Positions 2,310 to 8,702 of a stretch of 35,280 bases of DNA are shown here, in pieces (position 1 is the stretch's first letter; every line of letters begins with the position of its first letter). Under the pieces are notes generated by a model. It was not told where the DNA came from and did no database searches. It saw only the letters and a list, made by a program, of their open reading frames with translations. The translations under genes were made by a program, and so were the position numbers. This stretch comes from a virus: UHGV virus genome UHGV-0087155; one strand, given 5' to 3'.

Positions 2310-3248
2310 ATGAATATTTCCGATATTCGCGCAGGACTGCGCACGCTTGTAGAAAATGAAGAAACCACCTTTAAACAAATTGCTCTTGAGAGCGGGCTTT
2401 CTACCGGAACTATCAGTAGTTTTATCAATGATAAGTACAACGGGGATAACGAGCGTGTTTCACAAATGCTGCAACGCTGGCTGGAAAAATATCATGCAGT
2501 TGCAGAACTACCTGAACCGCCCCGCTTTGTGGAAACGCAGACGGTAAAACAAATCTGGACAAGTATGCGTTTTGCCAGCCTGACTGAAAGTATTGCTGTT
2601 GTATGTGGCAATCCTGGTGTGGGCAAAACCGAAGCGGCCCGTGAATATCGCCGCACCAATAACAATGTCTGGATGATCACCATTACGCCATCCTGTGCCA
2701 GCGTTCTGGAATGCCTGACTGAACTGGCGTTTGAGCTGGGAATGAATGACGCACCACGCCGTAAAGGGCCGCTCTCCCGCGCCCTGCGACGTCGCCTTGA
2801 AGGTACACAGGGGCTGGTTATCATCGACGAAGCTGATCATCTTGGTGCCGAAGTTCTGGAAGAACTCCGCCTGTTACAGGAATCAACCCGTATTGGCCTT
2901 GTGCTGATGGGAAATCACCGGGTTTATTCAAATATGACGGGGGGTAACAGAACGGTTGAATTTGCCCGTCTGTTTTCCCGTATTGCAAAGCGCACTGCAA
3001 TTAATAAAACCAAAAAAGCCGATGTAAAAGCTATTGCGGATGCCTGGCAGATTAACGGCGAAAAAGAACTGGAGTTATTACAGCAGATTGCGCAGAAACC
3101 AGGTGCGCTTCGCATTCTGAATCATTCACTTCGCCTTGCAGCCATGACGGCTCACGGTAAAGGTGAGCGTGTTAACGAAGATTATCTGCGTCAGGCTTTC
3201 CGTGAATTAGACCTGGACGTTGATATTTCAACGCTGCTGCGTAATTAA
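2310..3248 (+). CDS. B: Mu B transposition protein, ATP-dependent target DNA activator (312 aa)
   Basis: Length and sequence match MuB; Walker A motif GNPGVGKTE present; ATG at 2310 downstream of A. Confidence 0.95.
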   Translation: MNISDIRAGLRTLVENEETTFKQIALESGLSTGTISSFINDKYNGDNERVSQMLQRWLEKYHAVAELPEPPRFVETQTVKQIWTSMRFASLTESIAVVCGNPGVGKTEAAREYRRTNNNVWMITITPSCASVLECLTELAFELGMNDAPRRKGPLSRALRRRLEGTQGLVIIDEADHLGAEVLEELRLLQESTRIGLVLMGNHRVYSNMTGGNRTVEFARLFSRIAKRTAINKTKKADVKAIADAWQINGEKELELLQQIAQKPGALRILNHSLRLAAMTAHGKGERVNEDYLRQAFRELDLDVDISTLLRN

Positions 3249-6624: not shown

Positions 6625-6936
6625 ATGAATAATGGTGTATTTTCAAAATCAGAAGAGCTTGCCGCCCTGCTGATTGCCGGTGGTTTGCCGAAAAAAGAAG
6701 TGCATGACTTTGTGAATTTTGTATATGAGCCGTCTCATGAAAAAGCTATTGATGAAGTCATGGCGTACCGGTTTGGCATTATTGCTGAGTCACTGAGTCC
6801 TCACTGGATTATTGAAAATCTCCGCACTATTGCTGATGGTAACGATAAAGTGGCGGCTGTCGCCGCCCTTGATGTGCTGCAACGTATGAACCGGGAACTA
6901 TTCAATCCCGAGTTTCTTTTTAAGAAACGAGGTTAA
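6625..6936 (+). CDS. early hypothetical protein (103 aa)
   Basis: ATG 6625 after GAAGGTGAG (track ORF starts at GTG 6610); stop TAA at 6934-6936. Confidence 0.55.
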   Translation: MNNGVFSKSEELAALLIAGGLPKKEVHDFVNFVYEPSHEKAIDEVMAYRFGIIAESLSPHWIIENLRTIADGNDKVAAVAALDVLQRMNRELFNPEFLFKKRG

Positions 6937-7314
6937 CCACTGTTTGCCGACGTCTGTTACGAGCGTCATCGGGGCGTCGGCAAGGTCCTGTTTTATGCGC
7001 TCAAGAATGGGTTTTTGATGTAGTGCTTTCGCAAAATCATGACCATCTTGTGTAAGTCTGACACTGGTGCCTGAATATGAATATCCGAGGCTTGTTGGGG
7101 TGAGACCAATGCTTTTTGCGGTGCCTGTTTCCAGATATCTGTTGCTGATAAAACCATTTTCAACCAGCAACAGAAGATGGAAAACCAGCTTCTGATGGCT
7201 GTCGCTGTGCCGCTGAGAACGATCCCAGCCGACATCTTCCAGTCGAATGAATGCGGTGTCGGCCTCCAGAAAAACATCAAATATTCTGGCTATCTCGTCA
7301 TAATCAATTTTCAT
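6898..7314 (-). CDS. hypothetical protein (138 aa) encoded antisense to the early operon
   Basis: ATG at minus 7314 with AAGGA 7 nt upstream; it is the only sizeable ORF in 6937-7344; its 3' end overlaps the converging plus gene by 39 bp. N-terminus (MKIDYDEIARIFDVFLEAD...) is reminiscent of small DUF2513-type phage proteins; this is from memory, not verified. Confidence 0.5.
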   Translation of the reverse strand: MKIDYDEIARIFDVFLEADTAFIRLEDVGWDRSQRHSDSHQKLVFHLLLLVENGFISNRYLETGTAKSIGLTPTSLGYSYSGTSVRLTQDGHDFAKALHQKPILERIKQDLADAPMTLVTDVGKQWLTSFLKKKLGIE

Positions 7315-7344
7315 ATCTCATTCCTTAATATGAGAGGTGAGCAA

Positions 7345-7896
7345 ATGAATCGCACATCGCTTATTAAATTAATCCATGTCGCCCGTCGGGAGCTACAACT
7401 CGACGATGACACTTACCGCGCCTTTCTGATGCAGAAAACGGGCAAAACCAGTTGCCGCGAGCTGACGGTTACGCAACTGGAACAGACGCTCGATGCAATG
7501 AAAGAACGCGGCTTTAAGAAGCTGAATAAACATCCACGTCGCCGCTTTAAGGAACATGTCACGCCCCGCGAGAAGGTGTACAAAGTCTGGCAGCAGATGG
7601 CAGAAGACGGTTTTATTACCGATGGCGGTGATGTGGCGCTGGATAAATATGTTCAGCGCCTGACGGCGAAACGTAATGGCGGACAGGGTGTTTCCACACT
7701 GGCTTGGTGCCACGGAGAATCGTTGCAGGTTGTGCTTGAAACCCTGAAGCAGTGGCACATCCGCTGTATTCGTGAAGCTTTTTCCCGTCACGGGCTTCCG
7801 TTGCCGGTCAGTCCGTCCGGGCGTGAACTGCGCGGCTATGACGCCATGACGGCGGCTTATGTCCATGCCAGAAAGACGCGGAGGATGGCACAATGA
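7345..7896 (+). CDS. gemA: GemA, gene-expression modulator (183 aa)
   Basis: Matches Mu GemA from MNRTSLIKLIHVARRELQLDDDTYRAFL...; ATG 7345 with GAGAGGTGAG RBS. The track ORF extends upstream to 7177 but that extension has no RBS. Confidence 0.85.
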   Translation: MNRTSLIKLIHVARRELQLDDDTYRAFLMQKTGKTSCRELTVTQLEQTLDAMKERGFKKLNKHPRRRFKEHVTPREKVYKVWQQMAEDGFITDGGDVALDKYVQRLTAKRNGGQGVSTLAWCHGESLQVVLETLKQWHIRCIREAFSRHGLPLPVSPSGRELRGYDAMTAAYVHARKTRRMAQ

Positions 7897-8282
7897 CGGA
7901 AGATTTATTTGGTGATTTGCAGGATGACACCATCCTGGCACATCTTGACAATCCCGCAGAGGATACGTCACGCTTTCCGGCACTGCTGGCGGAGCTGAAC
8001 GATTTACTACGCGGGGAATTGTCCCGGCTGGGTGTTGATCCTGCCCATTCACTGGAGATTGTTGTGGCTATCTGTAAGCATCTGGGCGGCGGTCAGGTCT
8101 ACATTCCGCGCGGTCAGGTTCTGGACTCGCTGATTCGGGATTTGCGTATCTGGAATGATTTTAACGGTCGCAACGTCAGCGAACTGACCACCCGTTATGG
8201 TGTCACTTTCAATACGGTTTACAAGGCCATTCGCCGGATGCGACGGCTGAAATACCGCCAGTACCAGCCTTCACTTCTGTAA
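7893..8282 (+). CDS. mor: Mor, middle operon regulator (129 aa)
   Basis: Matches Mu Mor in length and sequence; start overlaps the gemA stop; last gene before the early terminator. Confidence 0.9.
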   Translation: MTEDLFGDLQDDTILAHLDNPAEDTSRFPALLAELNDLLRGELSRLGVDPAHSLEIVVAICKHLGGGQVYIPRGQVLDSLIRDLRIWNDFNGRNVSELTTRYGVTFNTVYKAIRRMRRLKYRQYQPSLL

Positions 8283-8287
8283 ACAGT

Positions 8288-8312
8288 AAAGCCGGTTAAT
8301 CCGGCTTTTTTT
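8288..8312 (+). terminator. rho-independent terminator ending the early operon
   Basis: Stem AGCCGG (8290-8295), loop TTAAT, CCGGCT (8301-8306), followed by six T (8307-8312), just after the mor stop. Confidence 0.7.
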
Positions 8313-8359
8313 ACGTCCTCAATATCCTGTGATGAATAACCGTACCGGGGGAACTCATC

Positions 8360-8590
8360 ATGGGTAAAGGCTGGAATGCATCCTTTCATCTTGGCAGACG
8401 TGAGCGGCTGCGTCAGGAGGTTTTGCACCGTGTCGCCGGTGGGCCACGGCCTGCGCCCCGCGACTATACCGGTCATGATGGCACCCACGGCAGTTATTAC
8501 ATGAAAGGCTGGCAGTCAGTTGATATGCCGGAAATTCTTCATCATTGCCAACGTTATAAGGAAAAATATTGTGTACAGAAAATTCAGTGA
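8360..8590 (+). CDS. candidate small ORF (76 aa) in the mor-C interval
   Basis: ATG 8360 with GGGGGA upstream; the protein is Arg/His-rich and not obviously protein-like; may be non-coding leader instead. Confidence 0.3.
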   Translation: MGKGWNASFHLGRRERLRQEVLHRVAGGPRPAPRDYTGHDGTHGSYYMKGWQSVDMPEILHHCQRYKEKYCVQKIQ

Positions 8591-8702
8591 TGAATGTTTC
8601 GGGCCGTCCACGCTGATTAGTGCGATAAAAGTGATTGCCCTTGTGGTTCTGATAACCATCAGGGCCGTGGTGTATCTTTCTGTCTGTTAACAAGGGGAAA
8701 AT

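What the first reader, a model, noticed from the sequence alone, without database searches (positions are those of the whole stretch)
6898..7344. A 138-aa gene on the opposite strand inside the Mu-type early operon
Every other early gene reads left to right, but the 408-bp interval between the 103-aa gene (ends 6936) and gemA (starts 7345) has no RBS-supported plus-strand ORF. Instead it holds a minus-strand ORF (7314 to 6898) with an AAGGA Shine-Dalgarno 7 nt upstream of its ATG, and its 3' end overlaps the converging plus gene by 39 bp. Its expression would need a leftward promoter near the gemA ribosome-binding site, so transcription would collide with the early transcript; that arrangement suits a gene expressed in the lysogen or before early transcription ramps up. 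The N-terminus loosely resembles small DUF2513-type phage proteins (memory only). Candidate roles are superinfection exclusion, a defence or anti-defence factor, or an antisense regulator of gemA-mor.
Basis: partly seen in the sequence, partly recalled or inferred. Interest (0 to 1): 0.6.

Follow-up and report, generated by a model that had tools for sequence, protein, structure and literature searches.

The report
Backward accessory gene in Mu-like prophage
The backward-facing 138-codon gene just before gemA is a real, conserved gene for a small winged-helix protein of unknown function. It sits in a swap-prone slot where phage Mu itself is annotated with a different backward gene, so it is a credible but untested "passenger" gene, not a new kind of system.

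Summary
The minus-strand ORF 7314..6898 (138 aa) has an AAGGA Shine-Dalgarno 7 nt upstream. It overlaps the converging gp14-like gene by 39 bp and lies in the 408-bp gap before gemA.

It is a real gene:
- it matches PHROG 585 over its full length;
- 450 protein clusters are homologous;
- the AlphaFold model is confident (pLDDT 93);
- dN/dS is 0.05-0.24;
- the other five frames are all closed.

RefSeq already names it "DUF2513 domain-containing protein". The fold is a winged helix followed by three C-terminal helices.

The architecture is not unique. RefSeq Mu has a backward gp15 in the same slot, and D108 has an unannotated backward ORF there. About 38 of 54 enterobacterial Mu-like loci carry a backward gene in this slot: a gp15-type family or DUF2513.

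The cassette (6877-7344) ends exactly at the gemA ATG and has been exchanged recently between diverged prophages. DUF2513 allele divergence does not track GemA divergence.

Relatives also sit backward between Q and the holin gene in a lambdoid prophage, beside CBASS and AbiE defence genes, and as a Vibrio cholerae superintegron cassette.

Best reading: a stand-alone, exchangeable accessory ("moron"-type) gene, probably expressed independently of the early promoter. I found no promoter, and its function is untested.

The parts
6898..7314 (-). 138-aa protein-coding gene of the DUF2513/YjcQ-type winged-helix group (PHROG 585)
7322..7326 (-). Shine-Dalgarno AAGGA of the minus-strand gene, 7 nt from its ATG
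   Evidence: Read directly from the sequence. Conserved in the 30-nt spacers of the 62% and 46% identical alleles.
7315..7344 (.). 30-nt spacer between the two divergent start codons. It holds both ribosome-binding sites (gemA GAGAGGTG at 7333-7340) and a weak 6-bp inverted repeat.
   Evidence: The predicted hairpin is not better than shuffled sequence (z about -1.2).
6877..7344 (.). Replaceable cassette: the sequence with no homology to SfMu-type relatives. It comprises the last 20 codons of the plus-strand gene, the DUF2513 gene and the spacer.
   Evidence: Pairwise blastn breakpoints at 6876/6877 and 7344/7345. Against Mu and D108 the left break is at 6634.
6792..7391 (.). Recently exchanged mosaic block: 97-99% identical to the E. 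coli SE11 prophage, while the flanks are 81-90% identical
   Evidence: 100-nt sliding identity.
6625..6936 (+). Converging gp14-like early gene (PHROG 1988, 103 aa). Its C-terminal tail is encoded by cassette DNA and overlaps the DUF2513 gene by 39 bp.
   Evidence: Overlaps of 15-39 bp recur in E. coli, Salmonella, Enterobacter and Klebsiella Mu-like loci.
7345..7896 (+). gemA, transcribed divergently from the DUF2513 gene. Any leftward promoter and leader must lie inside its 5' end.
   Evidence: Pfam GemA E 7.6e-31. Homology to all relatives resumes at its ATG.
6852..6867 (-). GC-rich hairpin 31 nt past the stop codon of the minus-strand gene: a weak candidate terminator for a leftward transcript
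   Evidence: Terminator-like scan. A similarly placed hairpin occurs in the Salmonella locus. It lies in the Ala-rich coding sequence of the gp14-like gene, so it may be incidental.

Best explanation
The interval holds a real, exchangeable accessory gene cassette of the 'moron' type. It occupies a hypervariable slot directly upstream of gemA in a Mu-like (Muvirus) prophage. The cassette encodes a stand-alone 138-aa, mildly acidic winged-helix protein with three C-terminal helices (DUF2513/YjcQ group, PHROG 585).

Shown: the gene is under purifying selection. It is kept in the same slot and in reverse orientation in Mu-like phages of Escherichia, Salmonella, Enterobacter and Klebsiella. It moves by recombination between diverged phage backbones, and its relatives work as single-gene units elsewhere.

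Inferred: it is transcribed leftward from a weak or non-consensus promoter inside the 5' end of gemA, independently of the repressed early promoter Pe. On that reading it is made in the lysogen and is silenced by converging Pe transcription after induction. Its winged-helix surface would bind a nucleic acid or a protein of a competitor, most plausibly giving the lysogen protection against other phages or some related conflict function.
For: Real coding gene:
- Window versus the SE11 prophage shows 6 synonymous and 1 non-synonymous change. dN/dS is 0.17 and 0.24 against the 62% and 48% identical alleles.
- Only this frame is open in all seven copies compared.
- A profile search finds 450 homologous clusters, nearly all single-domain proteins of 130-145 aa.
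- The AF2 model has pLDDT 92.8.

Fold:

Slot and orientation:
- Same slot, divergent from gemA, with a 15-39 bp 3' overlap, at 62%, 55%, 48%, 46% and 32% protein identity.
- The slot alternatively holds Mu gp15-type, D108-type or L043-type reverse ORFs, or nothing. 38 of 54 loci carry a reverse gene.

Mobility:
- Homology breaks exactly at the gemA ATG.
- A 600-bp block is 97-99% identical to SE11 inside flanks that are 81-90% identical.
- DUF2513 divergence does not track GemA divergence: GemA 92% with DUF2513 46% in one pair, and GemA 37% with DUF2513 62% in another.

Stand-alone accessory character:
- Reverse-oriented between Q and the holin gene in a lambdoid Serratia prophage, and reverse next to a capsid gene.
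- Adjacent to type I CBASS plus the defence candidate PDC-S19, and next to AbiEii.
- A VCR-flanked cassette in the V. cholerae superintegron.

General background:
- 18% of tested V. cholerae integron cassettes of unknown function had anti-phage activity (doi 10.1101/2024.07.02.601686).
Against: - No sigma-70-like promoter was found on the minus strand upstream of the ORF. The best candidates match only 7-8 of 12 consensus positions, so independent transcription is not shown. No clear terminator was found either.
- No transcript data were located in the literature searched.
- No match to any PADLOC defence model, and no characterised relative in the PDB, BFVD or NCBIfam.
- Cassette GC content (45.5%) is not distinct from neighbouring early genes (44-48%).
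- In several more distant relatives the gene has the same orientation as its neighbours, so reverse orientation is not universal.
- The base rate for a random integron cassette being a defence gene is only about 10-18%.
- The persistent linkage to gemA across genera could instead reflect a function tied to gemA.
Confidence: 0.5

Rival explanations
1. Local regulator of the gemA-mor step. The winged-helix protein, or the obligatory antisense 5' leader of its mRNA, acts on the divergent gemA start region. It would tune GemA and Mor production and therefore the early-to-middle switch.
For: A divergently transcribed small winged-helix gene next to its target is the classic MarR/PadR layout, and the fold hits are to those families. 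The two start codons are only 30 nt apart, so any leftward mRNA must be complementary to the gemA ribosome-binding site and first codons. Linkage to gemA persists from 99% to 32% identity across four genera. In Mu this spacer is annotated as a 'semi-early promoter'. The 30-nt spacer is nearly invariant between alleles that are only 46-62% identical as proteins. mor overlaps the gemA stop codon, so it may be translationally coupled.
Against: Relatives occur where there is no gemA: a lambdoid Q-holin slot, CBASS and AbiE islands, a Vibrio integron cassette, and downstream of gatB. Many Mu-like phages carry an unrelated gp15-type gene or nothing in the slot. The family is mildly acidic (median pI 5.6), and the segment before the recognition helix is acidic and variable. 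The spacer hairpin is not significant.
Confidence: 0.17
2. Counter-defence or host-takeover factor used during infection. The protein is made early after DNA entry, or at a low constitutive level, and neutralises a host defence or host protein rather than protecting the lysogen.
For: The Mu early 'semi-essential' region is rich in host-directed accessory genes such as kil and gam, which are present in this early region. High allelic diversity on near-identical backbones is also what arms-race counter-defence genes show. The proteins are small and acidic. Winged-helix domains are often protein-binding modules (for example the RPA32 and ScpA hits).
Against: An orientation against the strong early transcript is a poor design for a gene needed during lytic growth. 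Occurrence as chromosomal integron cassettes and inside bacterial defence islands suits a host-side function better.
Confidence: 0.15
3. Not a functional gene. It is a chance or decaying ORF, and the true coding or functional unit is on the plus strand, as the revised GenBank record of Mu proposes for its own slot (Mu_54).
For: The updated Mu record AF083977.1 drops the reverse gp15 and annotates a plus-strand 55-aa CDS in this slot. For Mu's own cassette the two frames cannot be separated cleanly by dN/dS: 0.28-0.37 for the reverse frame against 0.44 for the plus frame.
Against: For the DUF2513 cassette every plus-strand frame is closed by 4-7 stops in the window copy. The minus frame shows strong purifying selection, has 450 homologous clusters, and gives a high-confidence fold.
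Confidence: 0.02

Closest known systems
Phage Mu gp15 (Mup15, NP_050619; PHROG 8747), and the D108 and L043-type reverse ORFs in the same slot
   Same: Same position (between gp14 and gemA), same reverse orientation, a 3' overlap with the upstream plus-strand gene (62 bp in Mu), unknown function, and exchangeable between related phages.
   Different: No sequence relationship: BLASTP E 0.23, hhalign probability 9.9%. They are shorter (79-119 aa). Their spacer to gemA is 69-73 nt and carries a conserved GC hairpin that the window lacks. The coding status of Mu gp15 is itself disputed between the RefSeq and GenBank records.
Pfam DUF2513 (PF10711) and YjcQ (PF09639) families
   Same: Weak direct DUF2513 hit over residues 38-110. 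Profile-linked relatives pass the DUF2513 and YjcQ cut-offs. PGAP names the protein DUF2513. Similar size.
   Different: The window protein itself scores 15.9 bits against a cut-off of 29.6. It has an extra C-terminal helical region of about 40 residues beyond the 100-position DUF2513 model. Neither family has a known function.
PadR/MarR-type winged-helix regulators
   Same: Winged-helix core followed by C-terminal helices. A hydrophobic helix ending in ...LVENGFI. An R-L-T-x-x-G motif after the wing. These motif resemblances are my own reading of the alignment; the fold hits are.
Phage morons and lysogeny-expressed accessory genes (for example lambda rexAB, bor and lom, HK97 gp15, P2 old/tin/fun). 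This comparison rests on established knowledge.
   Same: Present in some close relatives and absent from others. Inserted between conserved genes. Oriented against the surrounding lytic operon in both Mu-like and lambdoid contexts. Exchanged horizontally.
   Different: The defining private promoter and terminator were not found, base composition is not distinct, and prophage expression is unknown.
Single-gene cassettes of Vibrio sedentary chromosomal integrons, some of which are anti-phage (doi 10.1101/2024.07.02.601686)
   Same: A 37% identical homolog is a VCR-flanked cassette in the V. cholerae superintegron. The protein is small and works alone.
   Different: That homolog has not been reported as a defence gene. 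Full-text search for the term DUF2513 found only one unrelated paper.

Membership tests
Pfam DUF2513 (PF10711) | The protein itself scores at or above the Pfam gathering threshold (29.6 bits) | tested here: not met
   15.9 bits, E 0.017, residues 38-110.
Pfam DUF2513 (PF10711) | Homology by profile to proteins that do pass the threshold | tested here: met
   A profile of 24 homologs retrieves P0107 (48.4 bits to DUF2513, and also YjcQ at 26.9 bits against a cut-off of 23.3) and P0167 (34.5 bits). Several close homologs have precomputed PF10711 hits. PGAP uses the DUF2513 name.
PHROG 585 | Full-length match to the family profile | tested here: met
   E 2.6e-31, residues 1-137 against profile positions 1-127 of 128. 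The family has no known function.
Winged-helix fold | Helix / helix-turn-helix / beta-hairpin wing topology, with structural matches to solved winged-helix domains | tested here: met
Winged-helix transcription regulator (DNA-binding) | Sequence-specific DNA binding and an operator | not testable with these tools
   The only indirect data are a family median pI of 5.6 and an acidic, variable segment before the recognition helix, which argue neither way decisively.
Phage moron | Present or absent among close relatives, and inserted between conserved genes | tested here: met
   Only 5 of the 72 complete E. coli genomes that match the query region (of 5,426 searched) carry this allele over at least 80% of its length.
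Phage moron | Own promoter and terminator | tested here: inconclusive
   No consensus sigma-70 promoter on the minus strand. There is only a weak terminator-like hairpin at 6867-6852.
Phage moron | Expressed from the repressed prophage | not testable with these tools
   No transcriptome for this or a related Mu-like prophage was found.
Mu gp15 family (PHROG 8747 / 32893) | Sequence or profile similarity | tested here: not met
   BLASTP E 0.23. hhalign probability 9.9%, 15 aligned columns.
Known anti-phage defence systems (PADLOC-DB v2) | Match to a defence-protein model | tested here: not met
   No hit for this protein or for the marine homolog P0025. Only their neighbours match: CBASS cyclase plus a 2TM effector, and PDC-S19.

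The most novel reading that the evidence does not exclude
DUF2513/PHROG 585 is an uncharacterised single-gene conflict module, either anti-phage defence or counter-defence. It hops between prophage cargo slots, bacterial defence islands and Vibrio integron cassettes. In this reading the position directly upstream of gemA is a dedicated hotspot in Mu-like phages for reverse-oriented, lysogeny-expressed cargo, within which alleles diversify rapidly.
Probability: 0.25. Interest if true: 0.6.

Novelty: new member of a known kind. Interest (0 to 1): 0.35.

Why it matters
If the protein proves to act in phage-phage or phage-host conflict, it would add a very small (138 aa) stand-alone module to the defence or counter-defence catalogue. 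It would also identify a cargo hotspot in Mu-like phages comparable to the P2/P4 and lambdoid hotspots.

The comparison also bears on a small annotation dispute in the reference Mu genome: reverse gp15 in RefSeq against plus-strand Mu_54 in the revised GenBank record. Four different reverse ORF families occupy the same slot, and three of them are loosely related to each other on the reverse strand. That favours reverse-strand coding there.

As it stands, the gene is already annotated as a hypothetical DUF2513 protein, and nothing here establishes its function.

Tried and rejected
- Leftward promoter. The consensus scan found none. My relaxed scan found only 7-8 of 12 matches, including an extended -10-like TGgATTAAT inside gemA codons 7-12. 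Not convincing.
- Rightward promoter inside the cassette that could replace Mu's 'semi-early promoter'. Only weak matches.
- Hairpin in the 30-nt spacer as a translational switch. Folding energy is no better than shuffled sequence (z about -1.2 on both strands).
- Homology between DUF2513 and the gp15-type occupants of the slot. Rejected, despite a shared L-x-x-L-[VI]-E-N-G-x-I-like motif.
- Function by similarity. Nothing informative from the PDB sequence profile (best E 0.32), Foldseek against PDB, BFVD, NCBIfam or PADLOC. The afdb50 library was unavailable.
- Domain fusions among longer family members. None informative.
- Literature. 'DUF2513' occurs in one unrelated paper. Searches on Mu gp15/gemA, Pgem, YjcQ and Mu-prophage RNA-seq gave nothing on this slot. 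Stoddard and Howe 1989 and PMID 9454718 are not held in the library.
- Which strand of Mu's own cassette is coding. dN/dS is ambiguous because both frames are open.
- A crude greedy ORF caller for neighbour orientation was misled by long spurious antisense ORFs in gemA. I relied instead on the precomputed gene calls.
- Compositional anomaly of the cassette. None.

Full report
**1. Observation**

The minus-strand ORF 7314..6898 (138 aa, ATG) is in the sequence exactly as described.
- AAGGA, the complement of 7322-7326, lies 7 nt upstream of its ATG.
- The converging plus-strand gene ends at 6936, which gives a 39-bp 3' overlap.
- gemA starts at 7345 (Pfam GemA, E 7.6e-31), so the gap between the two plus-strand genes is 408 bp.
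- The plus-strand ORFs in the gap are a 42-aa GTG ORF and an in-frame upstream extension of gemA. The extension is not conserved, because homology to every relative begins at the gemA ATG.
- In a 99.9% identical E. coli prophage, the c repressor is the only other leftward gene between the left end and mor.

**2. It is a real protein-coding gene**

- The protein matches PHROG 585 end to end (E 2.6e-31).
- It has 29 close homologs at 30-99% identity. A profile of these finds 450 clusters among 1.84 billion representatives, nearly all single-domain proteins of 130-145 aa.
- Between the window and the SE11 prophage the gene differs by 6 synonymous and 1 non-synonymous change. dN/dS is 0.17 and 0.24 against the 62% and 48% identical alleles.
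- The other five frames carry 4-8 stops in the window copy, and only this frame is open in all seven copies examined.
- AlphaFold2 with the 24-sequence alignment gives pLDDT 92.8 and pTM 0.83.
- RefSeq/PGAP already annotates it as "DUF2513 domain-containing protein" (WP_000687312 and WP_000687313).

**3. What the protein is**

- The direct Pfam hit to DUF2513 is below threshold (15.9 bits against 29.6). Profile-linked relatives do pass the DUF2513 and YjcQ thresholds.
- The model has helices at 5-17, 25-28 and 38-52, a three-stranded wing at 71-87, and three C-terminal helices at 89-135.
- Conserved motifs are F-H-L-L-L-L-V-E-N-G-x-I and R-L-T-x-x-G-H-D-F-A. The first resembles the recognition-helix end, and the second the post-wing segment, of PadR/MarR-like proteins; that resemblance is my reading, not a test.
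- The family is mildly acidic, with median pI 5.6. The loop before the long helix is acidic and variable. DNA binding is therefore possible but not implied.
- I found no characterised relative by PDB sequence profile, BFVD, NCBIfam or PADLOC.

**4. The slot**

- Pairwise blastn shows that homology to SfMu-type phages stops at 6876 and resumes exactly at the gemA ATG (7345). Against Mu and D108 it stops at 6634.
- The replaced cassette is therefore 6877-7344. It supplies the last 20 codons of the gp14-like gene, the DUF2513 gene, and a 30-nt spacer that carries both ribosome-binding sites.
- The same slot holds other reverse ORFs in relatives. RefSeq Mu has a reverse 88-aa gp15 that overlaps gp14 by 62 bp. 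SfMu has the same. D108 has an unannotated reverse 119-aa ORF.
- I surveyed 54 enterobacterial Mu-like loci fetched through GemA. The set is not de-replicated.

| Occupant of the slot | Loci |
|---|---|
| gp15-type reverse ORF | 18 |
| DUF2513 | 14 |
| D108-type reverse ORF | 4 |
| L043-type reverse ORF | 2 |
| No credible reverse ORF | 16 |

- The gp15, D108 and L043 types are loosely related to each other but not to DUF2513.
- The revised GenBank record of Mu replaces gp15 with a plus-strand 55-aa CDS and marks a "semi-early promoter" in the spacer. dN/dS cannot settle that case. The recurrence of related reverse ORFs favours the reverse strand.

**5. Conservation and mobility**

- DUF2513 alleles sit in the same slot, divergent from gemA, with 15-39 bp 3' overlaps. 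This holds in E. coli (62%), Enterobacter (55%), Salmonella (48%), a further Mu-like contig (46%) and the isolated Klebsiella phage Kp4866-3 (32%).
- Allele divergence does not track backbone divergence. In one pair GemA is 92% identical and DUF2513 46%. In another GemA is 37% and DUF2513 62%.
- Against the SE11 prophage, a 600-bp block (6792-7391) is 97-99% identical inside flanks that are 81-90% identical.
- The cassette is therefore exchanged by recombination in its flanks. This probably explains the lower synonymous diversity of the first 60 gemA codons.

**6. Contexts outside Mu-like phages**

- A 48% identical homolog lies reverse-oriented between the Q antiterminator and the holin gene of a lambdoid Serratia symbiotica prophage.
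- A 26% identical relative lies reverse-oriented next to a major capsid gene.
- Marine homologs (40%) sit directly upstream of a type I CBASS (cyclase plus Cap15 effector), beside the defence candidate PDC-S19 and a SymE toxin.
- A V. parahaemolyticus homolog neighbours AbiEii.
- A V. cholerae homolog (37%) is a VCR-flanked superintegron cassette.
- Some distant relatives have the same orientation as their neighbours.

Together these contexts show a protein that works on its own and travels as accessory cargo. They only hint at a conflict-related role. By the one systematic test available, about 18% of tested V. cholerae cassettes of unknown function were anti-phage (doi 10.1101/2024.07.02.601686).

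**7. Expression**

- No consensus sigma-70 promoter is present on the minus strand upstream of the ORF. A relaxed scan gives only 7-8 of 12 matches.
- Because the two start codons are 30 nt apart, any leftward promoter and 5' leader must lie inside gemA. The leader would then be complementary to the gemA initiation region. That much follows from the sequence; any regulatory effect is inference.
- Mu, D108, L043 and the Salmonella DUF2513 locus share a GC hairpin plus a pyrimidine run upstream of gemA. The window's 30-nt spacer lacks it.
- The small inverted repeat in the window spacer is not significant.
- I found no transcript data for this slot.

**8. Verdict**

The gene is a new member of a known kind: a prophage accessory gene of an uncharacterised winged-helix family, sitting in a slot where a reverse gene has been annotated in RefSeq Mu. 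It is already annotated in public genomes.

- Best mechanistic reading (confidence about 0.5): a stand-alone exchangeable accessory gene, transcribed independently of Pe and probably active in the lysogen, with a conflict-related function.
- Rivals: a local regulator of gemA-mor (about 0.17), an infection-phase counter-defence factor (about 0.15), and a non-gene (about 0.02).

Noticed in passing
L003 (Mu) about 2270-2300; L002 (D108) about 2355-2390; L043 about 2965-3000; L010 5952-5971. Absent from window 7315-7344.: A conserved GC hairpin (GGCGGTGTTGCAGCACCGCC), followed by a pyrimidine run and then the GGAGG Shine-Dalgarno, lies directly upstream of gemA in Mu, D108, L043-type and Salmonella Mu-like loci. 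In Salmonella it looks like an intrinsic terminator in the direction of early transcription. In Mu it lies inside the annotated 'semi-early promoter'. The window's cassette lacks it, so gemA-mor here may depend wholly on read-through from Pe.
   Followed up: partly
L003 1967-2233 (minus) against L090 1331-1498 (plus): The two public Mu records disagree on the coding strand of this slot. RefSeq has a reverse gp15 (88 aa). GenBank AF083977.1 has a plus-strand Mu_54 (55 aa). Both frames stay open in a 72% identical relative, with dN/dS 0.28-0.37 for the reverse frame and 0.44 for the plus frame. Only the reverse product has PHROG matches.
   Followed up: partly
window 6792-7391: This block is 97-99% identical to the E. 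coli SE11 prophage while the flanks are 81-90% identical. That is a recent recombinational exchange of the cassette with short flanks.
   Followed up: yes
window 7345-7525: Third-codon-position diversity in the first 60 or so codons of gemA is lower than in the rest of the gene across 41 distinct Mu-like sequences (entropy about 0.3-0.55 against 0.6-1.0). Possible causes are recombination tracts or an embedded element such as the leftward promoter.
   Followed up: partly
L158 3840-4569: The Vibrio cholerae homolog (37% identity) is a superintegron gene cassette flanked by VCR (attC) repeats. Many Vibrio species carry 143-149 aa members of the family.
   Followed up: yes
L013 2899-5106; L160 1816-4447: Family members sit beside a type I CBASS (cyclase plus Cap15-like 2TM effector) and PDC-S19 in marine contigs, and beside AbiEii/DUF6088 in V. 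parahaemolyticus.
   Followed up: partly
L092 3888-4620: In a lambdoid Serratia symbiotica prophage the homolog lies antisense between a PR'-like promoter at the end of Q and a strong terminator just before the holin gene. That would place it inside an unusually long late leader of about 700 nt.
   Followed up: no
L163 (Klebsiella phage Kp4866-3, OK490420, unannotated record): This phage is Mu-like: gemA and mor are present. It carries a 32% identical DUF2513 gene in the same reverse slot, 72 nt from gemA.
   Followed up: yes
window 7393-8052 (minus); L002 2441-3100 (minus): A 219-aa ORF antisense to gemA-mor is longer than gemA itself. It is also open in D108, and it misled a length-based gene caller. 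It is probably spurious.
   Followed up: no
L137-L144 (for example L140 4001-4162): Eight viral contigs hold only a C-terminal fragment of the family (residues 84-137, 61-63% identity) with no intact ORF, in a context that is not Mu-like. These look like remnants of decayed copies.
   Followed up: partly
window 8283-8702: The mor-to-C interval of the window is about 370 bp shorter than in the otherwise 98-99% identical prophage of strain 22KM0354. It appears to lack the gp19-like gene, so this is another variable segment.
   Followed up: no
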